From Isurus oxyrinchus (lineage: Eukaryota), in contig JANJGN010000034.1 of assembly GCA_026770705.1 (NCBI GenBank), positions 4,340,001-4,404,000 on the forward strand: a DNA stretch of 64,000 bases, read 5' to 3'. A program made the translations under genes and the position numbers. Positions 3,138 to 58,732 of the stretch are shown here, piece by piece. The notes beneath the pieces are model-generated. The model worked only from the letters and a program-made list of their open reading frames with translations. It did not search any database and had not been told where the DNA came from. The first letter of the stretch is position 1; the number at the start of each line of letters is the position of its first letter.

Positions 3138-3173
3138 AATTGAAAATGCTGAGAAAGGTTTTGGGTGAATTAG
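3138..3173 (+). CDS. 36-nt phase 1-1 microexon (E)LKMLRKVLGEL of coiled-coil gene
   Basis: Acceptor tttttttctttttgcctttcag, donor AG|gtgggg, open frame; shares tttgcctttcagaatt with the exon at 47293. Confidence 0.8.
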
Positions 3174-3989
3174 GTGGGGTAAACTATAAAATGGGACTAA
3201 TCTATCCTTCTGATAACATAAAAAAAGAATCAGAGTGCACCTGTTTAAAAATGGCATCATGCAATAATACAGGACAAACCTCCTCCAGCCAATAGTGCTC
3301 GTTGAATTATCTACCAAAAATGTGCGATATCTTGGCTCTTTCTGTATCATATCTGATATATTTGAAACAATTTTCCACATGAATACTTGAAAGATACAAG
3401 CGCCATGCATCCCCCAGCATCTTGTGCAGATGCTTTGAATAATATTTTTCATTTCTCTTTCAAAGGCTTTGCAAATCTCTTCCCTCAGATTTCTTTGCCG
3501 GATATATAAATATGTGTTCCTTGCAAGTGACAATTTGGCAAAGTAAATACATTTACCTACATGCGTTAGCAAAACCTCTCATATTTTGGTGAGAGTTCAA
3601 CATCTTCCTTTTGACTCAAATGCGGAATAATTCAATGGTGCATAATTCGTTAACACCCGTGAATCTCTGAATTCCATGGAAAGGGAAAATATGATTTAAT
3701 AAGAAGTAATCATATCTGTAATCCAAGTGATGTAGCTTATTATGTACAATTAGGCATTATGTATAGTGGAAAATGAGAATATGCAGATTGTGTTCGATGA
3801 AATCGGCAGGCACATAACACAGAATGTGACCAATCCAACAAGAAAATGCGGGCTGAGGGGACATGGTTCTTGGAAATAAGTTGGGTAAAGAAGATCAATT
3901 GTATGTGGGGGAAATTTAGCAGGCAGTAATCATTGTATTGTACATTCTCGGATGACGATTTAAAAGGAAGCAAGGCAATTCACAGTAAG

Positions 3990-5560
3990 TATAAATAACT
4001 GGACGAGCGCCGATTCTGAAGGGCAAGAAATGCCCTGGATCATAGGGACAGGAATAAAAGATTGCAGGGAAAAAAAAAACCTGCAGCAGCACAATGGGAT
4101 GACTTCAAAAACAATTGGCAGAGCATAGCCAAGGTAGATTCCACCGAAATGGAAATGTAACCCAAACTAATCCTTAGCTCCCTCAGCTAAAAATGAGACA
4201 GGAATAAAGATAAAGAAGAAAACATCTGTGTATCACAGATGCCAACCAGAAAATACAATTGAGAACGAAGAGAAATGCAGAAGCTTCAGAGGTGGTGTTA
4301 AAAAGAATCGGACAGAAGCGAAGAGATTTTATGACAAGCGACTGGCAGCCAACTTAAAGGGGAATCACAAAGTCCTCTATAGGACATTAATAGTAAAAAG
4401 CGTCCTACAAGGAGGAGAACTAATTTGTAAGGCCCAAATACAGAAGTTCCCATGGACGACAGAGGTATGACTGAGATATTAAATCATTATTTTGCGTCGG
4501 ACTTTACGAAGGAGGTTACTGCTACCCAGGCCATGGTGGCAGGCGAGGAAACCCAGTCACAAGAAGGATTCAAAATTAAGAAGCAGCAAACGGTGGATGG
4601 ACTGACAGTAGTGAAAGTTGGTAAGGCATCGCGACTGGATGAGTTGCATCCTACGATATTGAAGCGAGTATGAACAGGCAGTGCAGGTGCACTGGCCATA
4701 ATCTGGTAGTAGTCCTTGTACTCAGGGGAAGCGACAGACGACTGACAAATTGCAAGCATTAGGCCGTTGTTACAAAAATATTGTAAGGTGAGTCCCAGTG
4801 GTAGACAAGATTATAGATACAATTATTGCGGAGAGAATTAGTAGTCACAAAGGAAAAAACATCATTTTTCCAGGAAGAACCAGCATAGACTTGGAAAGGG
4901 GAAATCGTATGTAACTATATTACGGCAGCTTTTTGGGGAAGTAACAGAAAGTGTCAATGAAAGTGATGCAATTGATGTGGTTTTCATGGATTTTCAAAAG
5001 ACATTTGATACAATGCCACACGACATGCTTGCGAAAAAACAAAGTTATTGTTCATGGGTTAAAAGGAAAAACAGCAATTTGGATGCAACTTTGGATAAAA
5101 AGAAAAGGAAGCATATAGTAATTGCCAATGAATAATTTTTCGGGCTGGAAGAATGTTGGTAGTGGGTTTCCAAAGGAATCTGTATTGGGACTCTTGTTTT
5201 TCATGATATGCATAATGATCTGGACCATGGAGTGCAGAGGACAATATCAGATTTGTGGATGATACGAAGTGTTGGTAGTGTCGTGGACTGTGAGGAGGAG
5301 GGCGGGGAAATGCAAGGTGACATATGCAATTTTGTGGAGGCGGAGGATAGTTGGCAGATGAAATTCAATGTGGAAAAGTGGGAGGTAATGCATTTTGATG
5401 GTAAAAATATGGGCAGACCATTTAAAGGAAGCGGTGAACTTGTGAAGGCAGAACAGGAGCAGGACAGGTGAGTGTATATGTCTGCAGATCAATGAAGCTG
5501 GCAGGAAAGGTGGAGAATTCACTTGACGAAGCATATACTATCCTTGACCTTATTGCTACT
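3990..5560 (+). mobile_element. Degenerate CR1 LINE ORF2 (RT region)
   Basis: Frameshifted motifs EILNHYFASDFTKE, DELHPTILK, DVVFMDFQKTFD, WQMKFNVEKWEVMHF. Confidence 0.85.
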
Positions 5561-6212
5561 GTCATACTCAATAAGGTTATGTCTGACCTTATCCTAACCA
5601 TACCTTTGGTTAATGTTTGCCAACCAGAAGCGTTGATTCCCCGTTCGATTGAGATCTGCTTAACTGAAACTTCATGATAATCAATGGCATGCCTTCACTG
5701 CATACTGGCCAAAAATATGCTACCATTACTGGTCACCTGAAAGAAAAACATGTTCCTCGTTAACAATTTTTTAATGGCATCACCTACATTGACATTGTGC
5801 CTCCTTCTCATTTTCCCCACGTAAAACGTTTGTTGAACAATTCGCCTGACAGGGCTTCTCTTATGATTCTGTGAGAGTAGTTCAATTTTTGTAAACTCGA
5901 ATAAAGCAATGTTCAATTAACTGAACATTTCGCCAGATGACAGTCACATCATGGCAGAGAACAACAGGCCTTCACTTATATCTCTCCTTATTTAATGATT
6001 TTAATACCGTGTCACATTATTTTCAGTAACTGTAGAAATCCTGTGTCGTCTGGCACATAACCTTCCACCCCAATACCCGTTTATCACTGAGTGATGAGCA
6101 ATTGCCTGAAACATTTAGGTTTGAGACGCTCGTTTGTAGCATTAACTATAGCATAAACAAACGCATCAAATGCCACTTTCTGCACTGTAAATACTATTTG
6201 TTCGTATTTCAG

Positions 6213-6239
6213 AAGGAAAACTCCACCAACGTGAGAACA
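6213..6239 (+). CDS. 27-nt phase 1-1 microexon (E)GKLHQREN
   Basis: Acceptor tttgttcgtatttcag, donor CA|gtaagt, open frame, continues the heptad register of 3138-3173. Confidence 0.8.
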
Positions 6240-9200
6240 GTAAGTGCTGACAGATTTTTCCACCTGCATTGTGAGTAATTCCTCCATCTGTTAATTACTA
6301 TGTGAATAAATCAATTGAAAAAGTTAAGCAGCATGTATTTCTTTTCTTCTCCTCTTGACAATAATCAGGTTCTGTATTACCTAGCGATTAAGTAATTTAC
6401 TTATTAATCGTTAACAAGATTGCTTCCGCTTATAAGTCATTACTAATACAATGTTTTATAACTGGAAACAAAATTGAGAAATATTACCTGAAATCTTAAA
6501 AAGATTCTCCCTACAACAGGCATTGATATAGCGTCATTAAAGGTGCTATACATTAGAAGTCACTGCACAGCGGAACTATTAAATCGTGGTTTTTCCACAA
6601 AGTACTCGCTAGAAGCTAACCTTTGAATGGCAATACAAATGTTGCAATGTTGGTGTTTATAGGGAAGTGACTGGGGCGTAGATATCTGAAGACACTGTCG
6701 GCAGTGCTGGAGCATTTACAGTTGTGAATAAGAAAGCTTGTAAGATAACAAATAACCAGGATGTCGAAGAGCTAGCAGCTTGCGGAAATAGAGATTTGAA
6801 AGCAAAGTTGGAATGTTCAATGTTATGAAGTTGTAATTTCCTAACCCAGTATATCTTAGTTGGTATATGTTGAAATAGCCGAAATAACTTTTATCTTGTT
6901 TGCCAACTCGGTTCAAAATGGACCACAGTGATGAACGGAGAAAATGAGAGGCCATTTCAGGTCTGAGTCTTCATCAGAGCATTGGGTTTCTTTGGGGTTA
7001 TGTTCGGCTGTCATTGCTGTCAAATGCGATCAGAGCTGCTCACCATCTTTAGCATATTAATGTTCAACAGAATTACGTGTATGCTCGGAATTGGAAATAA
7101 AAAGAAAATAAATTTTAAAAAGTAAACAGGAAACACTGCACAGGATATGCTCTGAAATGGATTAATTCGTTGTTGAGTCTTCTGGGCTCTAAAGCGCCGA
7201 ATCGAAAGTTGTCTTGTTGCTAATCAACCCTAAATTGAATCCCACCTGAGAAACACTATCTCTTAATCTCTTTTGCAAGTCAAGGTTTAAGTGAAATTAA
7301 AATACTCGATATCAAAGCAGGTTGAAAGGAGATGTTGCAGCTTGATCCTGTTCTTTGTTTTTCCCCTCACACTTGTTGCAAGATAACTTTAGTAACGGGA
7401 TCCATGATTTCAAATAACCTCACGCATAAGTAACTTGTTCAGACCTGTCGACTTATTTATCAATGGGGCATTCTTCCGGAGAATGACAAACTTTTGCTCC
7501 ACATCGAAAACCCTTTCAACCCATGCAAATTTGGTTCATTTTCTTCAGTATCTGAATCCTTATCGGATTTCAGCCTTCTCAGCAGACACTTAGGCTCCTG
7601 CTACTTATTAACTGCTTGGAAGATATCGCCAGCAATCCAGAGAACGCACTCTTCCATCATCCATTCATTGAATATTACAGTTGTGGCATGAAGAACATTT
7701 ATTGCCAGGCATGTTATTCCTGAGAATGTGACAGTGATTAACCTTCTGGAAAAGTTCACTTAAATGCTCTGCATTCTTTCAAATGCAGCATTGGATATGG
7801 CATTTGGGATTTTGGCACAACAATGATAAATTAACAGAAATATTAATCGACCATGTTGGCATTTAACGTAGTTTTTATTGTACAAACTTCTCTACTGCAT
7901 CTAGGTGTCAGAGTTTAAAGTGTCCTACCAGTTTCTGTATAAAACTCAGCACCGTGTTTCAGTATATCTTTTAAACAAGATGAAAACAGGTTTGCCGAGT
8001 GAGCATGGTGGGAGACTGGGCAGGATATTGTTGGATCGTTATAATGCATTCTTCATAGACAAAAAAACTCTATATTTATCACAGAAGCCAGCTTTCATAA
8101 AAGAGAAGGAAATAAAAATTGTTTTTTTTTACTTGCCCTCCCGTAAAGGAACTCTGCTTTTTATATGTCACTGATAAGATTTTGCTTGGATTTTCAACTA
8201 TTTATTTTAATTTCACTGCTGGATATTTGATTAATTTCTCCTTTGATTTAGATATGCGATAACATTTTAAATCAAAGAATATTTTTTATTTACCTGTGGC
8301 AACAATTGTTACACTTGAATTTAAGGAGAATGGAGAATTCTACGAAATTGCCCTGATGGCTCATAAAAGAACCACTCGGCAACATCACATAAAGTAAAAT
8401 CTTATGTTTCATGCTGGAAGATCAGTAGCTCAGAAGTGAATAAATTTGAATAAAGGAAGTGTAATCCAATTAGACGGCTGTTGCATCAGCCAGATCTCGG
8501 AAGAAAGGCTCAGCAAGTTTTCCTCTCCTTACTGATGGGAAGCAAGCTGTTTTGCTCCTTGAGCAAAAAATTTGGAGAGGCTTCGGTTTCATTTAGAAAA
8601 CTGAAATATTCGATTACTTCAAAGGAAGAGGTTGGTAACAAGAGAGCATTTTATGGATAGCGCTAGAACGATGAATGCTTGTTCTATAGATAAATAAAAC
8701 TTATAGAATGGTGTATGAATCTTTTGTTATATACTAAAGCAAAGGTGATCCGATAGTACTGTGTATTGTGAATATTCAGTGACTGCATTGAAACTGAATA
8801 TCATTACTAGTATGCAGTGAGCGGGAATAGACACATCAAAGGCTGAAATAGCACAAAATTCAGTTGGATCGAACAGTTGTTCTTCAGAGTGCTTAATTGT
8901 GTAATTTTGCGGGTAAGGAAGTAGGTAAGGATGAGTCAAGTTGTGAATTTATCGTATTTAACAAACTAAGGAATGCACGATGGCAGGGACAATGGAACAA
9001 ATAAACTTCAGAGCTGAAGTCGTGAGGCTTGAAACAGAGCACAGCTGAGTTGTCTTTTAAAAATAGTTTAACTTCAAATGTGTGCTGTTGTCAAAAATAA
9101 GGCTGGTAAGGCGTACAAAATTAATTACATAATTTTAATGACTTACGGACACATACAACAACAGATAATCTATAAATACCGGCGTAATATATGCAATTAT

Positions 9201-9772
9201 TTAAAATTTTACAAATGTAACACATGTCAGGTAATATAGAGGTAATATTGTGCAAAACTTTGGATAACAGGACAATTGCACGCAAACATGAATCAAGATG
9301 TTGCAGATCATTATTCTCAGGCTGCGAGCCATTGATTTTGAGTTTGATTTGCGAGATACGACTGAGCATAAGGAAGTGTGATATGTCGATATCTTATTGA
9401 TAATACACTCACACGGCCGAAGAAACCCAATTTTGTCAGACGGAGGCTTTGTCCGCGAAGGGATAGGGTCATGTGCATTCAGCAGATGCTCCCAAAGAGT
9501 TTGACAAAAACTGGCCTTGACCAAAAAGTACGATACACTTCCCACCCATAAGAGAGCAAAAAATAAAGGTAAAGACAACCAATTAAGGCATTCAAAATGA
9601 GGTCTAATTCATCGCAGTTCAAAAGGCTGCCAAGGTGGTGAAGGCAGATTAGTCATTTGGCAACGATAAAAGGCTCTCTTAGTTAGCCAGATGGACGACC
9701 CCCTCGAAGTTAGAGTGCAAGAATCCAGAAGAGAGCATTTACCAATCAAGTGCGAGGATGATAATATCTGGA

Positions 9773-10333
9773 TAAAAACAAAAAACAAAAACAAAAACAG
9801 AATTAGCTGGAAAAACTCAGCAGGTCTGGCAACATCAGCGGAGAAGAAAACAGTTGACGTTTCGAGTCCTCATGACCCTTCGACAGAACTTGAGTTCGAG
9901 TCCATGAAAGAGTTGAAATATAAGCTGGTTTAAGGTGTGTGCGTGGGGGGCAGAGAGAGAGAGAGAGAGAGAAGTGGAGAGGGTTGGTGTGGTTGTAGGG
10001 ACAAACAAGCAGTGTTAGAAGCAGATCATCAAAAGATGTCAACAACAATAGAACAAAAGAACACATAGGTGTTAAAGTTAAAGTTGGTGATATTATCTAA
10101 ACGAATGTGCTAATTAAGAATGGATGGCAGGGCACTCAATGTATAGCTCTAGTGGGGGTCGGAAGAAAATAAAATATTTTATTTTTTTAAAAAAATAATG
10201 GAAATAGGAGGGAAAAGGAAAATCTATATAATTTATTGGGAAAAAAAGGGAGGGGGAAACAGAAGGGGGTGGGGATGGGGGACGGAGCTCACGACCTAAA
10301 GTTGTTGAATTCAATATTCAGTCCGGAAGGCTG
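9773..10333 (-). mobile_element. 5'-truncated Penelope-like element copy, same family as 1358-2746
   Basis: Colinear with about 1395-1935 and carries the last GIY-YIG codons (LQPSGLNIEFNNFRS). Flanked by direct repeat TAATATCTGGA at 9762-9772 and 10334-10344. Confidence 0.9.
9852..9890 (-). ncRNA. Minimal hammerhead ribozyme-like motif in second PLE copy
   Basis: AGUU-CUGUCGA-A-GGGUC(AUGAG)GACUC-GAAACGUC-AACU; differs from the first copy only in the stem II loop. Confidence 0.7.
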
Positions 10334-11049
10334 TAATATCTGGAAACAGCTGGAGAGGACACCGAAAACAAACTTCATGATCGCTGTTGGAACAAACGAT
10401 ATGACTATGTACAGAGAGCTTGTTCTGCTGAAAAAAATAATAAACAAAAGGAGTTAGGTGCTATATTGAATAACATGATTTCGGGCCTCATTAGCACCGG
10501 TTCATTACTGTTTGCATCTCCCAATTGTCAAAGGAGCAGACAAAGCATGACAATTATCATGTAGCTAAAGTGTTAATGGGAAATAGCTTTTTTTTTATGC
10601 AACACCATTAATAGTTCTTAGGCTGTACATTTCCGCACCTATGAGCTAGGCATCATGTGAAATGGGTTGGAACAGGTGCGCATGTGACACGTAAAGTGGG
10701 AACTCTCAAGGTCTTGGAAAGAGCATGATTGTTGCGGCTGTAGAGTGTATTGGGTTTGTCTATAATACACATAAGCAGAACAAGTGTAAACAATACATGC
10801 AAGGGCAACACCGTAAGTAATGATATTAGAGCGGGAATGGATGACATCGAATTACAGAATAGTCTCGAAACGAAGATTACACATAAAATGGGATAAAACG
10901 CTTCAAAAGTGAGTTGGCATCTCTGTACAACGTTCATAATGTAGCAGGGGAGCTGTGTCCAATCAAACATTTGTAGGAAACTGGCTTCATACTGAGGATT
11001 GAGTTTTGCCAAACTTTTTGTGCTGTTAGAAACGATAGCCATACGAGCA

Positions 11050-11620
11050 AATAAGACCATACTGACGACTTAAAACGTCAGATGGCTAGATAAATGTTGA
11101 TACCTAAGAAGTATGTTATCAACGGATGGAACATGCGAACAAGGACTGGAGGAGATGATCCAAAACATCATTTCAAAACCCTTAAAATAATTATTCTGAA
11201 CTCAAAATTAGGGACATAAAGCTCTGAAAACTGAAATGCTGAAAGACACCAATTTTATTTCCTGGAATTGATTGTTGGACGATACGTGAAGCAGAAATTA
11301 GCTTGAATAACTTTGGTTTTGAGGCAAATATTGGAATTAGTGTGGAGATTTCAAACTACCAATGAGGACATCCAGGTATAATCTGAGAGCATAATTATTC
11401 GACTCACCAAGATCAGGAAGAGAGAATTGGAATTTCCTGGGTATACATTAAGAGACAATATGTCATAATGCCTGATGCTGATAGGAAAATAGATGATGAA
11501 TCGCATCGAGGTTAGCAAAGAATTATTTTTCCAAGCAGCCTAGCAAATTATATCTAAGTACCACCTATGACGATGGTCCACGCCTCCAGAGCAAGTTTAC
11601 CTTGGAGCTCCCTGGTACCA
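11050..11620 (+). mobile_element. Degenerate RTE-clade LINE 3' fragment
   Basis: Broken motifs YL.SMLSTDGTCE, CWTI, TNED, IRKRELEF, GKI...HRG match the post-RT C-terminus of RTE elements. Confidence 0.55.
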
Positions 11621-12487
11621 AAAAACTTTTAGGGCTTGGTTACTGATGAAAAAGTAGGCAAAAGGGAAAGAGTTTAATGATGTGCAATATTAAGGTAAAC
11701 TTGGCAAAGAACTCGTGTTTCACAGATATTTACAAGTCTGCTTTTGACGCCAACATCTAAAAATCCAAGCAAAAGTAGATTTGTCACTGAATACTAAAGC
11801 AGAAATATGACATAGTCGGCAGGAGACGGCAACATATTTGTTCAGGTAGGCAAGAATGATCATAATATAAACCAATTGAAAATGCCATTGCAGAGGGGCG
11901 CTTGGAAGGACAAAATCGGACCAATAATTTGAAGAAAAAGTTTTCTATTGGCTCAACTTGAAGCTTAACGAAATAACTGAATGAACAGAATGGCAAACAA
12001 CGATTTAGAGATTATTGTAAGGTGAACAGTTGAATGGTATGCAGGAGCATGCCGTAAAATATATTCCACTAACAGGAAATAAAGCTAACCAATCACAAGA
12101 ATCTATTGATGCATCAAATCAGAAGAGATGGTTAAATAGTAGGAAACAGGCATCGAAGGCATGATCGGAGAGACTATGCAGAGATTAGGTTAGAAACATG
12201 CGGACCTTAGCTGTATTGGTGCTCAGTGACTAACTTTCCTCCACAAATCTCCCAGTACCTCCTCCATTGTCTCTTCTCTTTTTTTCTAAAAACTTATCTC
12301 TTTTGATTCCAAGATCAAATATCTCCTTATTTTGCAGAATGCCAATGTCGGTTTCATCAGGCCATGGTGGCATTTGCATCGTTATTATAGCCGATTAAAG
12401 TAGCTGCATTGATGCTAGTTTTTATGCAGGTAATTAATTTTAAAGTGCGTAAAAAGTGCTTCAAAAATTGATTTTTTTTTTTTGCAG

Positions 12488-12514
12488 CCGGGAATGCATG
12501 CAATGCAACCTCAG
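12488..12514 (+). CDS. 27-nt microexon homolog, array unit 1 (x)GNACNATS; non-canonical GC donor, possibly pseudo
   Basis: Acceptor poly-T gcag, donor AG|gcaatc, open frame. Confidence 0.4.
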
Positions 12515-13788
12515 GCAATCGGCCGTTTAATCGTTTTTTCACAACTTTTTGCTGAAAACATGCCTGTAATTACAGAACAATGGACTGATAAAGGAAATGG
12601 CAAAATCGTACATGACTAGTACACAAGATAGCTTTTAATTAGATTAACCAAGCGTGCATACTTCATTGGATGTTTTGAACTTCCTTTTAAAAAAAAATGA
12701 CGTTTATTGCAGTTAGTTAATATCTTCAGTCTGTTTGAACCGATGTTTCAAATGCTGAGCTATAAAATTTGCTCTTAGCCAAATGCCAAACAAACAACAA
12801 GCTAACATCTGGAGTTAGATCAGATATGATCTCATTTGATGACAGAACATGATCGAAGGGAGAATCACCCACTATACTGTCAATACTATGCATCCCAGTC
12901 AACTGAAAAATAGATCTTCATGTTGGAATTTCACTAATAACAAATTATTACTATTATTTTAAAAGTTTATGGGCAATTTTATTATTTTTACTATTATTAT
13001 TAATAACATTAATAATTATAATAATAATCATCATCTGAATCATGACCATCATCAATATAATCACAATAATCATTACAATTTTAATATTACTTAGACTTAA
13101 TGGTTATTATTAGACAAATACTTTAAAGGACTCGATGAAAATTGGGGTATCTGGAGTGGTTTAAACATGTTCACCTTGGTTAATGGAATATGTTCGAAGG
13201 GGATATATTTCTAACTACTTTTCACATGCTCCTATTGATACTTGCATCCAGGTCCATAACTTAAGCCAAGTAGCGCCGTAATTCTCTGACTGATTGAAAA
13301 TCTGGGTGTACGTTAGCTGCATTGGTGCACAGCTTTCAAATTTCCCCCCTCAACAAGCAGGCCTCTGAACCACTGCTTCTTTATTTCAATCGATAAACCC
13401 ACCTGTTTACTCTTCTCAGCAATCAAATGAAGTAAATTAAAGGAAACGAGGGAAATGGTAAACAAAAAACAATCTGTTAACCCATCACTTTAGTGAAGCT
13501 TCTGATTACCAGACCAATTATCCCGTTACGTCGTGTGGTCAATATAGCTTTCATAAGGCTGCAATGATGTGTGTTTGGGTTTTTCACCTCATTGATTCCT
13601 TGCATGAGTTTTTTTTTTTATTGGTCAGGAACGTGAACTTCACTAGTTAAGCATTTATTGTCCATGCCAGATGCTTTTTGACACGGCACTAATGCCTTCT
13701 TGATCCGTTGCTCTCTACTGTCCATTGGTCAACAGGAAATATTTTTATTAGAAGAATAAATGCTTCAAATGTTTAACTTTGCCTGCAG

Positions 13789-13815
13789 TAGGGGCTACTC
13801 CTAAAACAACCTCAG
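13789..13815 (+). CDS. 27-nt microexon, array unit 2 (V)GATPKTTS
   Basis: Acceptor tttaactttgcctgcag, weak donor AG|gttcga, open frame. Confidence 0.5.
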
Positions 13816-15389: not shown

Positions 15390-15416
15390 CACGGAGCACA
15401 TGTAAAGCAGCCTCAG
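15390..15416 (+). CDS. 27-nt microexon, array unit 3 (A)RSTCKAAS
   Basis: Acceptor tctttgtctacag, donor AG|gtacta, open frame. Confidence 0.6.
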
Positions 15417-16837: not shown

Positions 16838-16864
16838 CAGGGGAAACACGTAAAGCAACCACAG
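16838..16864 (+). CDS. 27-nt microexon, array unit 4 (A)GETRKATT
   Basis: Acceptor tgtttttgtctgcag (tandem CAGCAG), donor AG|gtacca, open frame. Confidence 0.6.
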
Positions 16865-46260: not shown

Positions 46261-47292
46261 TAAGAAGTGCTGCCAGAGGGACTGCATACACTGCCTATAT
46301 TCAACTTGTCAGCCAAGAGACAACATTTGTAAAATTACAGCGGATATATATAGGCATTTACGCATTTCTGAGGCTCAAGTGCAGTATCAGGGAATTTGGA
46401 TGCGTGTCTCCAGAACCAACTGGACCTCAGTTACTACGTGCTTCCAGTGAAATTGTTCGTGTGGAGGTTCCTCTGATGGAAAAAAAACGGTTAGGCCATG
46501 TTTTTAAGTTCCACTCTATTAAGTTCTGATAGTAATGTTCAATTAGTTTTGGTATGCTTAATTATGTAAAATGACGTTGCATTTCAAAGCATATGTTTGG
46601 AAAAGCATCATTGTTTTAGCTTGTGTTGTAATTTTCAGCTTAGAATATAGGTAATTGCTGTGCAAATACAAATAAAGCCAATCACTTTATGGAGGGATCA
46701 TCATTAACAGTAGCTGAAAGGAATAGCATAAACGAGGAGAATAACTTAAAACAAAACACATTTGAGAACATAGCTCTGAAAGCAAACTAATACATATGCA
46801 GCTAAATCGCACATGTCACCATGTTATCCTTTTCCAATGTGTTCTGCAGCCAATATATCACATTTCAGCAAACAGAAAAAAAAGAGGAGACACGGCTTTC
46901 AATTGTTAATGCAGCATGTGCCTACAAACGGCAATGTGACAATATCTGGTCGAACAGTTTCAGTGGTGCTGATTGAAATTAAAATATTTGTCAGGGTATC
47001 AGATAATGCACATCTTCTGCTTTGAGCTGAGAGCAGTAGGATGTATTGCACTAGCCTCAGAGAGTAAACGATGCATTGGATTTTGTGTCTACTGATGGTG
47101 TCGTTTATTGCTCAGCCAAACTTCCAATCAAATAGATTATTTACATGTCAGTGAGCAGTATTAAACATTAAGCTTTATAACAACCGATGCATGCAGCATC
47201 GAAATTTTGAGCTACAAACGAGAAGAAACAGCCATCCAAAATTTGCCGAACCATGACAAAATTCTTTGACTGAATATGTGTTTGCCTTTCAG

Positions 47293-47328
47293 AATTAGGT
47301 CAAACGAAGAAAACTCTCACAGAAATAG
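47293..47328 (+). CDS. 36-nt microexon (E)LGQTKKTLTEI
   Basis: Acceptor tgtgtttgcctttcag, donor AG|gtgagc, open. Confidence 0.88.
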
Positions 47329-49049: not shown

Positions 49050-50900
49050 AAATTAGCCCATGTTGCAGCTATATTTTTTCCCACCAAACTATGGTTTCAT
49101 CTATCTGACCCAATTCTGTTCTTGTATCAGCGAAGGTGGCACTGGTCCATTTAAGTATTCCTACTCTGGATTGCTTATCGTAATTTTCTATCATCATTCT
49201 AAAGCATACAATACGATGATCATTGTATCCTAAATGTTTCCCAAGAGAAAGTTGATCTACATTGCCCACCTCGTTTTCAAGAACCAGGTAAAAGAGAGTA
49301 TCGTTTCTGGTACCATTGAATACATAATGGAATAGAAAAGTTTCCTGCACAATATAATACATTTGCCCCTCTCCGCCTTTTACACGACTAATGTCCCAGT
49401 ATAAATTCGGGTAATTGCTATTATATCATGTTTGCATCTGCCAGCAATGGCCCTGAAGATTTGCTCTTCTACACCTTCTTACTTTTCCCTAACCAAATTG
49501 ATTATGCCCTTGAACCATCTGGGAGGACGTTTTTCCTCCATACTGCAATTTCCTCCTTAATCTATGCCACTATGCCTCCTCCATTCCTATCAGTAATGAA
49601 CATTATTTGACCAAGAAATATTTAAAACTCATTCCTGCTATTCCTTGTTCCACGTTTCTCTCATCGCCACAGCATCATGTGGCAATAATAGCAACATGGC
49701 AATCGGTGCCTGTAAATATCAGACCCTTTTTTTTTACTAAACCCCGGGCATTGACATAATAAGTTTATTAACTCTGGCTTAGATGTCTTTACATTCCCCT
49801 GCACATACACATATCTAATAATTTTATTATTCTTTATCATGGTGATAACTAACCCTCCGAGAAATTTATACACCCAAGAGCATTCCTCTCTAATAATGTA
49901 ACTTTGTTCCCAACCGCTGCTGAGTTAATTAAAAGCCCTCAAAAACTTACGAGCAAAACCAATAAGGAACTCAGCCACAGCTCTGTTCAGATGCAGCCCA
50001 TCGGCTTGTAAAGTTCCCATCTCACCCTTGACAGTCCGAGTGTACCAGGAATCTAATGCCCACCCTCCAGCACCATTCTTCCAGCCATGCATTTGTTTGC
50101 ATTATTCTCCTACTCCTGTGCTCGTTGGCCCGTGACACATGGCATAATCCGGAGATTACTACATTTGAGGGACTGCTTCCTAATTGTCTAGCTAGCTCCC
50201 TAACTTCTGATTTTAGGATGAAACCCCCTTCCTACCATTGCTGCCAATGAGAGCCTCGAACTATGGCTGTTAACCTGCCTCTAGAAGAATGGCATGTAGC
50301 TGCTCTGTGACATAATTCCCCCTGGTATCAGGGATCTGACAGACTATCCTGGTGTCACATATACTGGCCACAGGAACGTCTCTCCGCTCCCCTAACCAAT
50401 GTATTACCTAGTACTATTACCGTTTCTCTCTTCCGCCTCTCTTCCTGCACAGCCCAGCCGTTCGTTTTTCCACAAACCTCCCACTGACTGCATTCCACTA
50501 AAGAATTGGCGACCTCACAAACTTCCAAAATGGAAAATCGATTTGCGAGTGGAACTCCAGTGGTCTACATCAATAACAATCTACATATAGTGGACTGTCT
50601 GGTGGTCAGCAATTCCCTTATTTTCCAGTCACTAATGCCGCCATGTGAATATCTCTCTCAGCATGCACTCAGCCCCGCTGCTGTGCCACAGTGACCCCAA
50701 CCGCTCCTTGATTTCTGAATGTCGGAAGTCAATTTCTGCAATTGACAGTTTTTCCTGAAAATGTGGTCATCTAGGACACCGGTAGTGTCCATTACTTGTG
50801 ACATATTGTGGAACAATCGTTGTTTTGGAACTCTTGGTTGATGACACCACTGCTTGGAGCAAGTGAACGTTTGAACATAATACAGAATGGATGTCTCTGA
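49050..50900 (-). mobile_element. Degenerate CR1 LINE 5' half (ORF1 and APE region)
   Basis: LVLENEVGNVDQLSLGKHLGYNDHRIVCF (APE C-terminus); QVMDTTGVLDDHIFRKNCQLQ (ORF1 N-terminal Cys region); esterase remnants at 49950-50400. Confidence 0.8.
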
Positions 50901-51016
50901 AAGTCCTTCTGTTTTGCATCCCAGGCTCATGTGCTGCATAAACTGTAAACCTCACTTCAAATTTATACCTGCTTCTGGCGCTACACATGTCATTGCTAAG
51001 AAATTACATTTTTCAG

Positions 51017-51043
51017 AGGCAAGTTTGGACCAATGTCTGAAAG
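51017..51043 (+). CDS. 27-nt microexon (E)ASLDQCLK
   Basis: Acceptor ttacatttttcag, donor AG|gtgaat, open. Confidence 0.85.
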
Positions 51044-52414
51044 GTGAATTACGACAAAGCATGTTTTGTTCGTTATTGCGGTGAACAATGTTTGCATTTT
51101 TGTAGACAATGATGCTGAGCGAACCAAGAGTGAAATTTTTTGAAGTATTAAACACGATTTTTAAAACTCTGCTTATGATGCCGGATAATAAGAGAAGAGT
51201 GGTTATTTGCAGAAGTAGCGCCCTTGGTCAGAAATGGTTTTAAAGATTAGCCCAGAAACACAACTCTCAGTTTAGAATGGGTGATCAGAAATAAATTGAA
51301 AGAGATCATCATTTCGAAAAATGGGTTTGGATGAATACATTTTTATTACTCATAGAAAGCCGGCACACATTTGCAACGGTAATCTGTTTTATCTAATAGA
51401 ACAAGTTTCATTTTCAGGAAGTAAGATAATATGTTGAGATGAAGAAACAGATGAAGGCAGTAGTTATAGCAAAGGTTTTGGCACTTGTCCAAATGGCATC
51501 AATTGGGATCATAGGACGTACTGGAAAACTCCCAATATTACCACTGACCTAACATTTAACTGCACTAGCATTATCGATGATCAGGCCAGAGCTTGGAAAT
51601 CCTATGATGACTAACTGACCTCATAACTCTCTAGTGCAGCATGCTCAATGCATGTGTCAGCGTTGAGTTGGAATACATCCCAATTTCATGAATGGGTGAA
51701 GGAACACCAAAAAAAAAATAGGCATGAGTCACGAAAATTTAACCCACTTGATCCAATGTACCGCCTTAAACCTCCCGCCTCCAAAACAGAGTGGACGCAG
51801 TGAATACCACATGCATGATGCAACACAGGAAGTCGCCAGATTTCCTTCAACAGCACATTCAAAACTCACGGCCTCACCACATTGGAGTACATGTTCAAAC
51901 AATACCCTAATACCTCAACAAACCACAAGCACTGAGAACACGGAACAAAATGTTTAATCCTTTAGTGTTTTGACATCATAATCATGGAGATCACTTTTCA
52001 AAAATGACGGCGAAAGACAGGCCGGCAAAAAATCAAGACAACATACCACCACTATCTTTTCCAGGACAATTGGCGTTGGGTAGTAACTTGTGGCCCTTCC
52101 AGCGAAGCTGAAATTACATGCAAGTATAACAAAATTAATCAACGCTGTAGTTCTGGTGTGAGTGTCCTAATGGAATAAGTTTTACAAAACTTGTTAACAT
52201 CTTTTCATTGAAATAAAGTGGTCAATAGAAGCATAGATGCAAATTCAGTTATGGGAGAGGAAAGTGTGAGTCGTGTTGAATGGTAGTATTTCTCTCAGAC
52301 TAGCGAAAAATACGATGGAGGAGCAACATAAAAGTACTTGCACAAACTAAGCAAACGTGATATAAGAGATCAGAACCTGCTGTATAAGCGTTCAAGTTGG
52401 CAAAACATTGACGA

Positions 52415-52865
52415 ATTGAAAATAGGAGCAGCAGAATGTCACTCAGCCCTTCGAACCTTTTCCGCCATTGAGCATGAGCATGTCTGATCATTTATCTCAA
52501 CGCCATATTCCCACTCTCTCTCCATATACTTTGACACCTTTAGTGCCTATAAATCTACGTATTTCTTTCAAAAGTATATTCAATGGCATGTCCTCTACGG
52601 CACTATGTGGCAGAGAATTCGATAGAATCAGCACTCTCTGAGTGAAGGAGCCTCTCGTGACCTCTGTTCCAAATGGCCTAAGTGTATCCTGTATTTGCAA
52701 CTACTGGTTCTACACCCCTCTCCAGAGAAAACATTTTCTCCACGTCCAGTCTGTAGAGCCCGGTTAGAATTTCATACATTTCAAATGAGATCCGCTCTCA
52801 TTCTTCTAAACTCCAGTGAATATAGTTCTAGTCGAACCTATCTCTCCTCATACTACAATTCCACC
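52415..52865 (-). mobile_element. CR1 LINE 3' end
   Basis: Minus peptide RGSFTQRVLILSNSLPHSAVE and a CR1-type tail. Confidence 0.8.
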
Positions 52866-52889
52866 AACCAAGCACCTAGGTGCCATTGC

Positions 52890-53560
52890 GCAGCAATCAC
52901 TGAAATTAAGAAGCAGGTGCAGCAAGCAGTTAAGACGGTAAATGGTATGTTAGTCTTCATTGCTTGGGTGCAGGAGCAAGCAGGTCTTACTGCAGCAATT
53001 CTGGTCCTTAGTGAGATCAGAACTGGAGCTCTCTGTCTAATATTAATCTCCTAACATAAGTATTGGCGCATGTTTAATCGAGATCGGGCACCGAGTGTTT
53101 GGCAGACCGATTTCCGCTATTGCAGAATCGTTGTATGAGGAGAGATTGGGTAGACTAGGCATGTACTCACCGGAGCTTTGGAGATTGCAATGAAATATAT
53201 AACATTTTGACAGAGCTCGGCACACTGGTTGCAGGGATAACGGTTTCTCTGCCTAGAGGTCTGGAAAGAGGGACAAAAACTCTGGGTACCGAGGAGTGCA
53301 TTGATGACTCAGATGAGTTCATGCTTCTTCACTCATACGTAGGTTGAGCTGTGCAATTCTCTACTACTTTGTTGTCGAGGCAAAGTTACTGAAAACCTTG
53401 AAGAAATAAATAAGTCGATTATTAGGATGTAAAATTGTCAAGAGGTATGGGAAGAAGGCAGGATTATGTCCTGGAGCCAGAGGATCAGCCATGATCATAA
53501 TGTATGGTGGAGCAGGCTCGACAGGAAGAATGGCATACTCCTGTATCGATTATCTCTTTC
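52890..53560 (+). mobile_element. CR1 LINE 3' end
   Basis: QVQQAVKTVNGMLVFIA, LYEERLGRLGMYS, tail gatcagccatgatc..ggagcaggctcg. Confidence 0.8.
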
Positions 53561-53677
53561 TCTGAAGGGACAGGGTGAATAGTTTCCTTCTATATTGTGA
53601 TACATCTCTGAATTTATGATGGAAACTTCTTCATTTCATTCTAACTTCATCTATATTTTTACCCACAATGTTTTCAG

Positions 53678-53704
53678 CGGTGGGGGATATGTGCAAAACT
53701 GATG
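53678..53704 (+). CDS. 27-nt microexon (A)VGDMCKTD
   Basis: Acceptor tttttacccacaatgttttcag with ctaac branch motif, donor TG|gtatgt, open. Confidence 0.75.
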
Positions 53705-56700
53705 GTATGTCGTTCTAATTATGCACAGTTGTGAAAAAAAAAAACTCCCAGGCTGCTGTACATTCAGCTTAGTTGTTGTGTGAATGGATTATGGAACAGA
53801 TTTCAAAGAGCAATAAAAAAACAAATTATGTGCGGTTAGATCATGAAATTATCTTAATGATCAGATTCCAAAAAATAACAATGTTGCATAGCATAATGCA
53901 TTATAGGGCATGTGCAGCACCGAATGAGAGAAAGAAGCCCAGTTGGTCCATGCATTCCTTTACGTCTAGGCGAATATACACACACCCTTCTCCAAGTAAT
54001 CTCAACAAAATATCCTTATATTGAAATTCCCAGCACCAGCCGCCAAAATGTACATGTCTGCTCTAAGTCAAAACTATCCAACCATTTAAGAATCTTGGAG
54101 GCCTTAATGTGCGCATCACTCAAATGTATGATTCTGCAGGGATATTGAACCTGACAATATTACATTGACATTCTTTATCTCCCAGTTATTACATCTTTCT
54201 TGTAAATGAAAATTGCTTGTGCAATTTATCCAATGCGATTGTGTTTTTTTGTTCTGTAGAATGGTAAATCGAGCGTTGCATAGTGCTCCAAAGTTATTCA
54301 ATGCATTTTCTATAGAAATTCAGCACAGCTTCCTTAACTTTACATTATCTTCCTCTGGAATTAATTAGCAGCGTTTTTGACTCCGTTTACTGTATTCTTC
54401 TTAAACTGTGCCAACATTTAATAAAATTGCACTGTGAAGATTGTTCAGTTTTACACTTGATTTGGATACGTTAAATCCAGCGAAAATTTGCCTCGTTTAT
54501 TCTCGCTGAGAAAATGTTCATAACATTTATTAACCAATTCCATGAACAATCAGTCAGTTTGTTAATGCATTTCTTACATTTGTCCCCTTAGCCGTATTTT
54601 CCAACGGGGAGTGGTGCTATTTGCAAACATTTATTCACTTTAGTCGATTTTGCAGTTGGAATTATTTATATAAATGGAATGCGGCAGTGGATGCCATGAC
54701 TGCTTTTGTGGGACACCGCTTCACGCAATACTCCAGAGTGAGTACTTGCCTGCAACACTTCTTCTTAGTTTTCCGTTCAATTTCTGATTATCCACCTTGC
54801 GACTTATTTCTAGACTGCACATGTTCTGACCTTAACCATAATTCATGTTATTGCATTACTTTGCCTTTTAACACCCCTTCCGATTGTCAGTTCCATTCAA
54901 TTGTTATCGGTTATGTAATGTGATGAACGAGAATAGGAATTATATATGTTTTGCGTCACTCTCTTATCCAACTTCTCAAAGTATAGTATAGCTTGACGCA
55001 ATGCCATTCAACAGTGTGCCTTCAATCGCAAATATTCCACATGAGAATGGAATTTGGGGGAAAAGGAAAAACTCAATGTAAGTACGGTGAACTATTTGAC
55101 TCCATTCCACAATCACATATTCCAATGAGGGTAAATACTACAAAGCTGTTTAAATGAAGGTAGAGCTTTACGATCTCATGATGTATCACATGTTATGCAC
55201 AACTCTCAGATCAAAGGTTAATTTCATCCATTTCGAACCGTTGTTGCTTGATTGCACTGTCAACCCACAGCTTTGCAGTTTGAGGTTCACAGGATAATCA
55301 TCTATGTAACAACGTTGACTGAACACATGCATCCTTATTTACTCAAAGATTCAGAAGATACATTTTTGGCATATAAACAATTTGGGCGCCTGGGGGTTAT
55401 GAAAGGGGCGAAATAAATGGGAATTAGTTCGTTATTTGATATGTGCTTAATCCAGTCAGGCACTTCAAATTACCCTTCAAACTCGTACAGTAATCAATTA
55501 ATTATTTTAAATTATAATATCACTGTTATGATGTCGAGTTGAAATTATTTCGCCATTGCAGATGAACGACTGCTTGAAGCAGAACATGTTAAGGAAGCCT
55601 TTAATGGTATCTCATGTGTAAACATTTATAAAAGCAACACTCCAATTATTTAACTTTAAATCTCCTCTAATGTATCACGGTAATTTGAAAGGGTGTATTC
55701 AATCGGGCGTGTGCAATATTTGAAGCAAGTGCAACTGATAGCAGTTTAATTCATCCTTGGAGGTTAGCATGTAATGGGGGTAGGCATTCAGTGACCAATT
55801 GTGAGCCTAACTCTTTCATCATTATTACCTATGCCCTTGTTTGGCATTTTCATTTCATCTTGCCATTTCATCACTCCTACGCTCCAAGATATCACAACAC
55901 AAACATTTTCTTATATCTTGTTAAATGTTTACATGCCACTGTATGTGCCTAAAAACTGCTAGATTCTCACCTCCATCTATACAGATGAAAATCCAGCGCC
56001 CTGAAATCTGGTATATATTTCTTTGTCCAAGGAGGTGATTCAAAATTTGCTCATGGTGTAGAACAAGGTGCTGAAGCAAAGGCTCGACATAATTTGGTCA
56101 TTATAGAGCGAAAAAAAATCAGTACAGCCCTAGCTTTATTATTACAAGACGAATTGCAGACTGCAAAATGTGCATCAGGAGCACTATCTTATATTTTCTA
56201 TTAAAGGCGATGGGCAACAACATATGCACCAGAAATTCGTGCTAATAATTTGATAATGCAGTCGTGACATAGATTCAGACATCGAGAATTTACTCCAGAA
56301 TCTATTAGTGTTAATTCAAGGATGCGTGCAACATTGCAGAATGTGTAGCCATTCAAATCATTGAACACTTTGCTGGCTCTTTGAGATTATTTTTCAACTG
56401 ACCCAATTTCCGGCCCTCTTTCTTCTGAAACACAATGCTTTTTAAGATCATTCAATTGCAATCCATTTGCCACGGAAATCTGACAGGACAACCAGTTCCA
56501 ATATTCTTTTGGGCAAAGGATTACAAATCATTATAAGTCAATGAAAGATAACAAGCCCAAAGCATCCCTCCCTTCGCCACTTAAAGGAAATGTGTCTTTC
56601 CTGGCTACCCATGATCCTACCATGGGGGATAAAAAGAAGCATCTCCTGTTCTGCTATATCAAAAGCCGTGGCTGTATTAAAATTTGAATTTAACAACTGC

Positions 56701-56759
56701 TTTTATTTAATGTAGAATAATCTCATCTAAAGCCTTTTTGTCACTTATATTCTCTTCAG

Positions 56760-56795
56760 AACTTAAACATCTGAAAAGCAGCATGAAAGATAAAG
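56760..56795 (+). CDS. 36-nt microexon (E)LKHLKSSMKDK
   Basis: Acceptor cttatattctcttcag, donor AG|gtgacc, open. Confidence 0.8.
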
Positions 56796-58714
56796 GTGAC
56801 CAAGAACACATTTGGAAAATATAACTTTAAAGTGTTTGTCCATTTATTTATTTTCCGTGAGGGCATTCAAATCTACTTGCATCAACATCCTTTAGCAGTG
56901 ATGCTCTAAAGTATCAACATTACTATAGAGTGGAGATGGATTAAAATCACCCTAATTGCCTTGATGCTCCTGCAGCGCTCACTCTCAAAAATGAAACAAG
57001 GGTTGAATTTCTGAGGACAGCCTCAATAGATTCGGCATGTATTCCTTTTAAATTAGGAGATTAATCACATTGAGAGGTTCAAGAGTGTTAAGTAAGTTTA
57101 CTGGCTTCAGAAAACAGCTATTTCCTTTCTATGAGGAGTAAAGAAACAGGAGGCAAATTATTAAATTAGATCTGGGGCATTCCGCTGTGACGTTAGGAAA
57201 GTTTTCTTGCCATTAATGCCAATTAAAATGCATAACACTAAAGAATAAAGGCATTGATAATTGATCATTTCAACATTTGCAAATTGTGATTCCGCCCCGC
57301 TCGCCACCGGGATCCGTGAATCTCGCCAAAACTCAATGGTGGTTTGGCTCGGCCATCGTTTCTAAAACAGCAGATCCTGCTACCATGTTTTTTTTTCCTC
57401 TTTGGAATGGCATTGAATTTGCTCAAATAAAGGTGAAACAGACCGTAAATTTTCCAGGTCAGCTGTAATCAATTTGAATTGAAGGTCTCAATGATTGACT
57501 GACCTACTGATTTTTCCTGTTCCAATTTTCTAATTTTGTGTCAATTTCAGAATATATAATTGAATCTGCTCAGTTCCTTATGCATTATAATACCATCGCT
57601 AATGTTAAGTTGTTAAACAAACGTTTGATTTTTCGTTGACTAAAATGTTAAGTATTTCATATTTCAGTAATGAGAGGTGCTGCGTGTGGAAAGGTCCACA
57701 TTTGTTTCCCATCGTTATTGGCTTCTCTTAGTGTAGTTAAGCATCAACCAGATGGTTGTGATCCTGGAGTTGCACTTTGGCCAGGCTGGGCCACATTATA
57801 CAGCTCGTTTCTCAGCAATGTATCAATGGATGACCAGAGCGCTACTTTCCAGCAGAATTCGAGGAAAGAGTTGCAGTCAGTCGATTTCAGGACTGGATCT
57901 GGAGCTTCAGGAGCAGCTCTGTTTGCTATCCAAGTTATTGATGTTTCTTCTCTTCGAAATTAAAAGCAAAACCACTTTGTAACACAGCGTTTAATGCAGT
58001 TCCCACCTACTCTAATCCCCGCTGCAAAACCATTGTCCAAATTGCGACGGGTCTCCAATGAGCCAGCCAACTTCAAGGGTTTCCTGCTTCTTTAAAACTG
58101 CAAAATTGCTTCTCCTTGTAAAATTTAGCCTTTCCAAGGAACAACAGCTACAAGATATTTGCAGTAACCCTTTAAGGAACAGCTCTCTTTAGAAAAATCA
58201 GACAAATTGTTGTCAGTTGTAGGAGATGAACCATTTTCCTCATTTACAATTGTCATGACACGTCCCGCTTCGGAGAAATCAACTGAAATATATATTTGTC
58301 TTCCTTACTATGTGTAACAAAATTACAGCACACAAGCACACATGCACTCATTCACTATTTTTTAATACGAATTGAATACACTATTATTTTGGCCTGTAGT
58401 GAATTTTGTATTTAATTTACATTCCAGACAAAGCATTGACAATTGCATTGTTTTTCCCGGCCATGTGGACAATTTTTAAATGAAATGGGAGTAATGATGA
58501 ATGCCATAGAAATACATAGTCGACGGGGTTAAATCAGTGTATCCCGGTGACTCCATATATGTGTCCTGAATTTATGTCAAAATGTTTAAGAGATAATATC
58601 AAGTCAAGGATTTCCAGTTCAGCAAAAGAGTATGTTTTCCTGTTATCGATTTAGCTTTTTATTCAAAAAATATCTGCTTGGCCTTCCTCTGCCTTTTCCG
58701 ACTTCTTATAACAG

Positions 58715-58732
58715 AACTGAATCTTGTCCCAG
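58715..58732 (+). CDS. 18-nt phase 1-1 microexon candidate (E)LNLVP
   Basis: Strong pyrimidine tract ccttcctctgccttttccgacttcttataacag, donor AG|gtcagt, open; size differs from the 27/36 pattern. Confidence 0.4.

What the first reader, a model, noticed from the sequence alone, without database searches (positions are those of the whole stretch)
3138..58732. Hidden gene built from about 22 symmetric 27/36-nt microexons over 55 kb, invisible to the ORF track
Seen: AG..GT-bounded segments with pyrimidine tracts at 3138, 6213, 12488 (GC donor), 13789, 15390, 16838, 18996, 20649, 23819, 26285, 27323, 28196, 29338, 29883, 32914, 38734, 42733, 43868, 47293, 51017, 53678 and 56760. All are on +, exactly 27 or 36 nt, phase 1-1 and stop-free in that frame, and several are paralogous (EIRKLKVAL/EIRKLRKAL; ELDRLFEDL/ELERILEKM). 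Known: arrays of tiny phase-1 exons encode the heptad tails of butyrophilin and chicken BG genes (mostly 21 nt) and the lumenal region of triadin. Inference: this is the repetitive stalk or tail (about 220 aa) of one large gene whose globular domains lie outside the window. Symmetric exons would allow combinatorial skipping, giving a length-tunable rod. Caveat: once the pattern was noticed I searched for these sizes, so the weaker members may be chance matches.
Basis: partly seen in the sequence, partly recalled or inferred. Interest (0 to 1): 0.88.

Follow-up and report, generated by a model that had tools for sequence, protein, structure and literature searches.

The report
Giant shark genes built of microexons
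The tiny 27- and 36-base segments look like real exons and are about a tenth of a predicted 820-kb shark gene of roughly 240 such exons that likely spells one very long helical rod tipped by a B30.2 binding domain, one of five such giant genes lying side by side that existing annotations appear to catch only in fragments.

Summary
Confirmed, and much larger than reported. All 22 segments exist. On + the window has 15 well-scoring 27/36-nt AG..GT candidates, all open in phase 1, against 0 on - and about 1 in shuffles. The array runs about 810 kb: 244 predicted exons of 21, 27 or 36 nt (9 on the opposite strand at that cut-off), ending in an intact B30.2/SPRY exon. A 36-nt plus a 27-nt exon make three heptads, a 21-nt exon one; 27 and 36 alternate far beyond chance. 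Four paralogous genes fill a 4.8-Mb cluster; the signal follows each gene's strand and vanishes outside. Their B30.2 domains form a cartilaginous-fish clade apart from the sampled TRIM and Ig-bearing proteins. No Ig, RING or B-box exon was found upstream; a conserved ATG-less donor points to a soluble protein. Database models of relatives differ by 9-residue blocks. Best reading: a cytosolic coiled-coil tether, about 350 nm, adjustable by splicing. Splicing in this species, tissue, ligand and function are untested.

The parts
1..64000 (+). Whole window lies inside gene 1 (about C34:3,998,400-4,817,027). Outside the window: predicted non-coding first exon with donor at C34:3,998,628; 111-nt exon with first in-frame ATG at C34:4,005,537; 21-nt exon block at C34:4.07-4.19 Mb; terminal B30.2 exon at C34:4,816,507-4,817,027
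3138..3173 (+). 36-nt phase-1 microexon, heptad type
   Evidence: strong
6213..6239 (+). 27-nt phase-1 microexon (alternative donor at 18 nt)
12488..12514 (+). 27-nt microexon, GC donor; first of five tandem G/A/T/S-rich non-heptad copies (predicted hinge)
13789..13815 (+). 27-nt microexon, hinge copy; weak splice score
15390..15416 (+). 27-nt microexon, hinge copy; weak splice score
16838..16864 (+). 27-nt microexon, hinge copy
18252..18278 (+).
18996..19022 (+). 27-nt microexon, hinge copy
20649..20675 (+). 27-nt microexon
   Evidence: strong
23819..23845 (+). 27-nt microexon
26285..26311 (+). 27-nt candidate; weak
27323..27358 (+). 36-nt microexon, heptad type
   Evidence: strong
28196..28231 (+). 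36-nt candidate; weakest member
29338..29364 (+). 27-nt microexon
29883..29909 (+). 27-nt microexon; moderate
32914..32949 (+). 36-nt microexon
   Evidence: strong
36385..36411 (+).
38734..38760 (+). 27-nt microexon
41297..41323 (+).
42733..42768 (+). 36-nt microexon, heptad type; one genomic match for it with its flanks
   Evidence: strong
43868..43894 (+). 27-nt candidate; weak under the locus model
47293..47328 (+). 36-nt microexon
   Evidence: strong
51017..51043 (+). 27-nt microexon
53678..53704 (+). 27-nt candidate; weak
56760..56795 (+). 36-nt microexon
   Evidence: strong
58715..58732 (+). 18-nt phase-1 microexon

Best explanation
The window lies inside a predicted 820-kb shark gene whose roughly 240 phase-1 microexons would be spliced into a coiled-coil rod of about 2,400 residues ending in a B30.2 domain, likely a soluble cytosolic dimer that works as a long tether, with exon skipping predicted to set its length. 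SHOWN in the sequence: the exon array, its frame, its heptad pattern (36+27 nt = three heptads, 21 nt = one), the intact terminal B30.2 exon, four paralogous genes, and a separate cartilaginous-fish B30.2 clade. INFERRED: a non-coding first exon and a start codon in the 111-nt exon, hence no signal peptide or membrane anchor; a parallel two-chain coiled coil of about 350 nm (0.15 nm per residue, recalled) with both B30.2 heads at one end; cysteines buried at core d positions; a flexible hinge from the five non-heptad exons at 12488-19022. With no RING it would not ubiquitinate; it would hold a B30.2-bound partner at a set distance or bundle along a filament, as the BG-derived zipper protein is reported to do with actin-myosin. 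Skipping a 21-nt exon or a 36+27 pair would shorten the rod in register; skipping one 27- or 36-nt exon would keep the frame but shift the register and add a kink.
For: Length spectrum at generic score >=7 over gene 1: + 21:21, 27:32, 36:62, other lengths 0-8; - 6, 4, 3. Model trained on gene 1 only, applied to held-out stretches (+/-): gene 2 start 22/2, gene 2 end with gene 3 start 14/1, gene 4 2/38, gene 5 start with gene 4 end 0/9, gene 1-2 spacer 0/1, C21 member 13/0; twenty 10-kb samples 46/1 and 0/12; 0/0 in both 70-kb flanks. Hydrophobic residues at positions 2, 5, 9 (68-86%) and 12 (45%) of 36-nt exons, 4 of 27-nt (77%), 2 and 5 of 21-nt; 153 of 193 neighbours alternate vs 96+-7 shuffled; top periodicity 3.5 in the one block tested; 48 of 68 Cys at position 5 of 21- and 36-nt exons. 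SPRY E 3.4e-14; five C34 B30.2 exons without stops; dN/dS 0.31 and 0.45 in two pairs of them. 18-row clade 100/100. Database models of relatives are coiled coil + SPRY with no RING, B-box or Ig in 6 of 6 scanned; their isoforms differ internally by 9, 9, 9, 7 and 6 residues, and two of these proteins match 27/36-nt exons of the C21 member in order. Shared donor without ATG in genes 1-3, low-copy.
Against: Exon joining is predicted, not observed. dN/dS among duplicated microexons is inconclusive: 0.65 pooled (23 pairs), 0.42 older, 1.6 younger with 3 synonymous changes, so some copies may be decaying. The joined 244 predictions hold 5 stops, so a few are false or unused. The first ten codons of the 111-nt exon are hydrophobic and conserved as if coding, upstream of gene 1's ATG, and gene 2 has a strong hydrophobic 30-nt exon candidate upstream; a membrane anchor is not excluded. 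Three database models begin hydrophobic, though I read these as intron read-through (inference). Nothing here identifies ligand or tissue; 'tether' rests on analogy.
Confidence: 0.6

Rival explanations
1. Same exons and rod, but membrane-anchored or secreted: an unrecognised short upstream exon plus the hydrophobic start of the 111-nt exon forms a signal or anchor, and the core cysteines form a disulphide ladder in an extracellular fibre.
For: Conserved hydrophobic first 9-10 codons, dN/dS 0.18 on 10 codons; 30-nt hydrophobic candidate at 512725 in gene 2; 48 of 68 Cys in one core position.
Against: No counterpart of that 30-nt exon in gene 1; the shared upstream donor has no ATG reaching it; gene 2 has ATG where gene 1 has ATT at codon 3, which would explain the conservation; sequons 10 vs 9.2+-2.8 expected; five of eight relatives' models (two are isoforms of one gene) have no hydrophobic start.
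Confidence: 0.15
2. Real gene, but a large share of the predicted microexons are duplicated, drifting copies that are rarely included; the usual protein is far shorter than 2,400 residues.
For: Young duplicates show dN/dS 1.6 on small counts; a near-perfect 7.4-kb duplication; most database models of relatives are 175-460 residues.
Against: Only 12 of 174 unselected candidates have a phase-1 stop vs 109 and 66 in the other frames; alternation is kept across hundreds of kb; a chimaera model reaches 1,697 residues.
Confidence: 0.12
3. A butyrophilin/BG or TRIM gene whose Ig+TM or RING/B-box exons lie further off or are too diverged to see; an immune receptor or ligase with an extreme tail.
For: Best PDB matches are BTN3A1 B30.2 domains, E 2e-20; best longer protein hits are TRIM-like at 29-35%; a small family member lies on the MHC class I contig C21.
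Against: No such domain in 150 of 152 ORFs >=52 aa scanned in the 42 kb before gene 2, nor in 133 of 133 ORFs >=62 aa in the 65 kb before gene 1; gene 4 starts head-to-head about 30 kb away; separate clade; BTN3A1 H351 is Ser.
Confidence: 0.06
4. Genes 1-3 form one 3.5-Mb read-through unit with alternative B30.2 last exons.
For: All internal exons are phase 1 and on one strand; gene 3 lacks the 111-nt exon.
Against: Each of the three has its own copy of the upstream element and donor; gene 3 is explained as a tandem duplicate of gene 2 with an internal deletion.
Confidence: 0.05
5. Chance AG..GT pairs picked after the pattern was noticed.
For: Seven window members are singly at chance level.
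Against: Strand, length, frame, shuffle, held-out and flank controls.
Confidence: 0.01

Closest known systems
Chicken BG genes and the zipper protein (PMC4046983, passages read; PMC8813856, passages read)
   Same: Long heptad coiled coil coded by tiny exons, 21 nt = one heptad; tandem gene cluster; the zipper protein was described as a soluble tail acting on actin-myosin.
   Different: BG has IgV + TM, 13-36 tail exons and no B30.2 as described there; this has about 240 or more exons, mostly 36+27 nt, a B30.2, and no Ig or TM found.
Butyrophilins (PMC8813856 passages; PMC12841164 part 1 of 4 read)
   Same: Heptads followed by a terminal B30.2; BTN3A1 is the best PDB match.
   Different: No IgV/IgC/TM found; about 340 heptads' worth of residues instead of a few; B30.2 in a separate clade; H351 absent.
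TRIM-B30.2 proteins such as TRIM39, TRIM58, A33-like (definition from PMC8813856 passage)
   Same: Coiled coil then B30.2; databases label family members with these names.
   Different: No RING or B-box, so no E3 activity expected; the rod is built of repeated microexons.
Guinea-pig enterophilins (architecture recalled: up to about 45 heptads + B30.2, cytosolic; only a table row and a reference title seen, PMC13749957)
   Same: Soluble long heptad rod + B30.2 without Ig or RING: the nearest working analogy.
   Different: About seven times longer; kinship not tested; likely a separate origin (inference).
Titin (PMC3575840, passage read: 363 exons, called the largest exon number)
   Same: Giant gene whose length is tuned by exon skipping.
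   Different: Unrelated; coiled coil from 21-36-nt exons. Gene 2 extrapolates to about 490 exons, an estimate from samples.

Membership tests
Butyrophilin | Extracellular IgV (+IgC) exons upstream | tested here: not met
   Pfam on + ORFs before genes 1 and 2, motif scan, tblastn with a neighbouring V exon
Butyrophilin | Transmembrane exon | tested here: inconclusive
   No TM exon shared by genes 1 and 2; one hydrophobic 30-nt candidate in gene 2
Butyrophilin | Heptads then terminal B30.2 | tested here: met
Butyrophilin | B30.2 groups with Ig-bearing proteins | tested here: not met
   18-row clade 100/100 apart from 12 Ig-motif rows; midpoint root, labels by motif
Butyrophilin (BTN3A1 type) | H351 for phosphoantigen sensing | tested here: not met
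   Ser at that column in gene 2's domain (residue role from PMC7348870 passage; numbering matched by me); Ser in five and Cys in one of the six own domains
TRIM | N-terminal RING and B-box | tested here: not met
   0 of 6 relatives' models carry them
TRIM | Coiled coil + PRY-SPRY | tested here: met
TRIM | Antiparallel dimer (recalled) | not tested
   open
Chicken BG | Tail of 21-nt heptad exons | tested here: met
   38 of 244 exons are 21 nt, nearly all in one block
Chicken BG | Single IgV + TM, no B30.2 | tested here: not met
   no IgV found; B30.2 present
Tetherin / TMCC(aT) / PLVAP cluster | Next to PLVAP; TM + coiled coil, GPI end | tested here: not met
   PV-1 family hit is on C12, not C34 (strict first look); gene ends in B30.2; definition from PMC10617486 passages
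Enterophilin | Soluble long heptad region + B30.2 (recalled) | tested here: inconclusive
   architecture fits if the start is in the 111-nt exon; no enterophilin sequence was compared
Enterophilin | Enterocyte expression, SNX1 binding | not testable with these tools
   needs tissue RNA and binding assays

The most novel reading that the evidence does not exclude
Cartilaginous fishes have an undescribed family of megabase genes that write 300-700-nm coiled-coil rods in a three-letter exon alphabet (7, 9 and 12 residues), each tipped by a family-specific B30.2 head. This shark has five in a 4.8-Mb cluster with roughly 1,200 microexons, and the largest (1.5 Mb, about 490 exons by extrapolation) would exceed titin's exon count. 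Splicing would dial both rod length and the position of kinks.
Probability: 0.5. Interest if true: 0.9.

Novelty: new variant of a known kind. Interest (0 to 1): 0.8.

Why it matters
It shows megabase-scale coding genes that annotation largely misses: relatives are filed as lone SPRY domains or as TRIM39-, TRIM58-, TRIM69-, A33- or 'nuclear-pore anchor'-like. If long reads confirm inclusion, gene 2 is a candidate for the most exon-rich vertebrate gene. The locus would be a natural test of how hundreds of microexons are spliced in order over 1 Mb, and of how exon duplication builds a molecular ruler. It also adds a chondrichthyan branch, with an MHC-linked member, to the history of B30.2 immune and epithelial proteins.

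Tried and rejected
RNA: no RNA holder was listed for window 42400-44200; contigs of four same-species runs (X1, X2, X4, X5; X3 left out) gave no cover on the B30.2 exon. Neither says anything on expression. No dimer or structure model was obtained, so chain orientation is open (no verdict). Tetherin/PLVAP idea dropped; the original paper was not held. The 111-nt exon found no protein relatives, no Pfam family and one genomic hit; one search covered a repeat by a coordinate slip and is void, as is the gene 2 row. A supposed match of that exon to the chimaera protein's start is not significant (257 and 102 of 1,000 shuffles reach it); that protein's first 396 residues found nothing in the genome and residues 1-260 nothing in the Atlas. 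tblastx and donor-pair scans for a shared first coding exon gave noise. No 111-nt paralog was found at the starts of genes 3, 4, 5. Microexon dN/dS and sequon counts were uninformative. Literature: seven full-text searches listed no paper describing this family; only listings were seen for most hits, no supplements were read, and subscription journals are not covered. PMC11788884 (passages) did not bear on it.
Full report
OBSERVATION. All 22 of 22 listed segments are AG..GT (GC at 12488) pieces of 27 or 36 nt on +, open in phase 1. A generic splice matrix (frequencies recalled, not fitted to the candidates) gives 15 candidates of these lengths at score >=5 on +, 15 of 15 open, against 0 on -, 0-4 for other length pairs, and a mean of 0.98 (max 3) in 40 shuffles. 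Seven members are singly no better than chance. 3138 is better read as 36 nt; 18252, 36385, 41297 and an 18-nt piece at 58715 are additions.

WHERE IT LIES. The window is C34:4,340,001-4,404,000 of a 4.98-Gb genome. The closest relatives of its terminal domain are from catshark and bamboo shark, so I take it for a shark (inference). Coordinates outside the window below are contig position minus 4,340,000 unless written with C34.

EXTENT OF THE GENE. Scanning 1.06 Mb around the window shows the array continuing both ways. Between a 111-nt exon at -334463 and a B30.2 exon at 476507, candidates at generic score >=7 number 21, 32 and 62 at 21, 27 and 36 nt and 0-8 at each other length from 15 to 60; the - strand has 6, 4 and 3. 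Of 174 such + candidates at score >=5, not chosen for openness, 12 have a stop in phase 1 against 109 and 66 in the other phases. Most 21-nt exons form one block from -269502 to -148011. The last exon starts in phase 1, is intact and scores as SPRY at E 3.4e-14. Median predicted intron 2.0 kb; the microexons are 0.9% of the span.

A CLUSTER OF FIVE. The B30.2 exon has four close paralogs on C34, at 2.71 and 3.47 Mb (-) and 6.40 and 7.50 Mb (+), 40-59% identical, and a further one on C21 at 36% (150 of 283 candidates scored). The model trained on gene 1 follows each gene's strand in held-out DNA: 22/2, 14/1, 2/38, 0/9 (+/-), 0/1 in the spacer; 46/1 in fifteen 10-kb samples from 5.1-7.4 Mb and 0/12 in five from 2.9-3.6 Mb; 0/0 in two 70-kb flanks. 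Extrapolating: gene 2 about 490 exons (30 in nine 10-kb samples over 1.39 Mb, plus 22 counted; about 320-650 on counting error alone), gene 3 about 280, gene 4 about 85, gene 5 about 160, in all roughly 1,200. These are estimates, and unsampled DNA could hold further gene starts. Titin has 363 exons (PMC3575840, passage).

WHAT THE EXONS SPELL. Counting the split codon as position 1, 36-nt exons are hydrophobic at 2, 5, 9 and 12, 27-nt exons at 4 (Lys at 7), 21-nt exons at 2 and 5. So 36+27 nt puts core residues at 2, 5, 9, 12, 16, (19): three heptads. The two sizes alternate in 153 of 193 neighbours against 96+-7 shuffled; the one block tested (46 exons) peaks at period 3.5. The joined prediction is 2,432 residues, 21% Lys, 17% Glu, 13% Leu, charge-balanced, with 5 stops that mark false or unused predictions. 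220 of 244 exons end in G and 735 of 29,646 ordered pairs would make a junction stop, so nearly any skip keeps the frame. 48 of 68 Cys sit at position 5 of the 21- and 36-nt exons. The window is an irregular part: five tandem copies at 12488-19022 code small polar residues without heptad pattern, which I read as a hinge. Amino-acid constraint on microexons is unclear (dN/dS 0.65, 0.42, 1.6); two pairs of B30.2 exons give 0.31 and 0.45.

THE FRONT END. No Ig, RING, B-box or lectin domain scored in 150 of 152 + ORFs of >=52 aa in the 42 kb before gene 2's 111-nt exon, nor in 133 of 133 ORFs of >=62 aa in the 65 kb before gene 1's; gene 4 begins on the other strand about 30 kb from gene 1. Two non-coding blocks are shared, in order, by genes 1, 2 and 3; the second ends at a splice donor in all three (-341372, 508607, C34:6,454,050) and no ATG within 300 nt reaches it. 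Genome searches with it returned 2 and 1 places, so it is not a common repeat as far as that search sees. The first in-frame ATG is then in the 111-nt exon: codon 3 in gene 2, ATT there and ATG eight codons later in gene 1. Neither start is hydrophobic enough for a signal or anchor. Against this: the first ten codons are conserved and hydrophobic, and gene 2 has a strong 30-nt hydrophobic exon candidate upstream. A soluble protein is my reading, not a result.

THE FAMILY. Searches with the B30.2 exon found 51-61% identical lone-domain annotations in two sharks and, among 150 listed representatives, longer members, named in databases as TRIM39-, TRIM58-, TRIM69-, A33-, BTN3A1- or nuclear-pore-anchor-like in catshark, skate, electric ray, epaulette and basking shark and chimaera. 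Six scanned have SPRY but no RING, B-box or Ig; the chimaera model is 1,697 residues with the same Leu-x-x-Cys heptads. A tree of 61 B30.2 domains (6 own, 13 named or picked, 12 Ig-motif, 22 RING-motif, 8 other; 10 isoforms or near-duplicates and the remaining hits left out; midpoint root) puts 18 rows, all chondrichthyan where named, in one clade at 100/100. Isoform models in three species differ internally by 9, 9, 9, 7 and 6 residues; such variants usually rest on RNA alignments (my knowledge, not checked here). Two of these proteins match 27- and 36-nt exons of the C21 member in order, and C21 carries MHC class I. This is the best, indirect, evidence that exons of this kind are spliced and skipped. 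The BTN3A1 sensing residue H351 is not kept.

HOW IT LIKELY WORKS. Shown: array, frame, heptads, terminal B30.2, paralogs, clade. Inferred: splicing into one mRNA; a cytosolic parallel dimer of about 350 nm with both heads at one end; no enzyme activity; a role as tether or spacer between a B30.2-bound partner and a structure along or at the other end of the rod. Analogies are the BG-derived zipper protein, reported to control actin-myosin interaction (PMC4046983, passages), and enterophilins (recalled). Skipping 21 nt or 63 nt would change length in register; skipping 27 or 36 nt alone would add a kink. Confidence 0.6 for the architecture and soluble dimer; about 0.97 that the array is real; about 0.35-0.4 for 'tether' as the actual job.

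KNOWN OR NEW. It works like a BG/butyrophilin tail or an enterophilin but fails the membership tests for butyrophilin, BG, TRIM and the tetherin cluster. Seven literature searches listed no description of the family; supplements and subscription journals were not seen. Two earlier AI notes from other shark genomes describe similar arrays; I reached this reading before looking, and they are not independent support. Verdict: a new variant of a known kind, at a scale about ten times that of BG tails. Interest 0.8.

Noticed in passing
G000:C34:6,433,700-7,520,000 (L119-L123, L151-L153, L201): Gene 3 looks like a tandem duplicate of gene 2 (about 76-88% DNA identity at both ends), keeping the upstream element but missing the 111-nt exon and the first 27/36-nt exons; B30.2 intact.
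   Followed up: partly
G000:C34:7,513,578 (L201) and 6,424,337 (L118): A nectin/PVR-like IgV exon with a TM-like exon at 7,524,026 follows the cluster; a broken copy of the V exon sits between genes 2 and 3, carried by the same duplication.
   Followed up: partly
G000:C34:7,545,000-7,580,000, minus strand (L204-L207): Ig V-like and I-set exons (titin, contactin and MAG among best PDB hits; Siglec-like by my recall) and a cobalamin-binding protein gene flank the cluster.
   Followed up: partly
G000:C21:89,660,000-89,723,000 (L142-L148): A small family member, about 13 predicted microexons + B30.2, on the contig with the MHC class I cluster (most hits at 93-100 Mb) and over 130 other B30.2 exons; matches catshark and Narcine models exon by exon.
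   Followed up: partly
G000:C34:3,975,000-4,005,500: Genes 4 (minus) and 1 (plus) start head-to-head about 30 kb apart; possible shared regulation.
   Followed up: no
G000:C34:4,626,732-4,640,124: Two exons recur 7.44 kb apart, one pair with identical flanks: a very recent duplication or an assembly artefact.
   Followed up: no
G000:C34:4,609,338: A 36-nt exon that by eye differs from its paralogs by a 1-nt loss and a later 1-nt gain, staying 36 nt and open.
   Followed up: no
window 1774-2324: Hairpin-like inverted copy of a common repeat: the same peptide text reads on both strands; Penelope-like 3' end by my recall.
   Followed up: no
G000:C12:24,455,463 (L102): PV-1/PLVAP family hit; the tetherin cluster of this genome probably lies there.
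   Followed up: no
L196:3936-4136, minus: Myb/SANT-like domain exon about 55 kb beyond gene 5's end.
   Followed up: no
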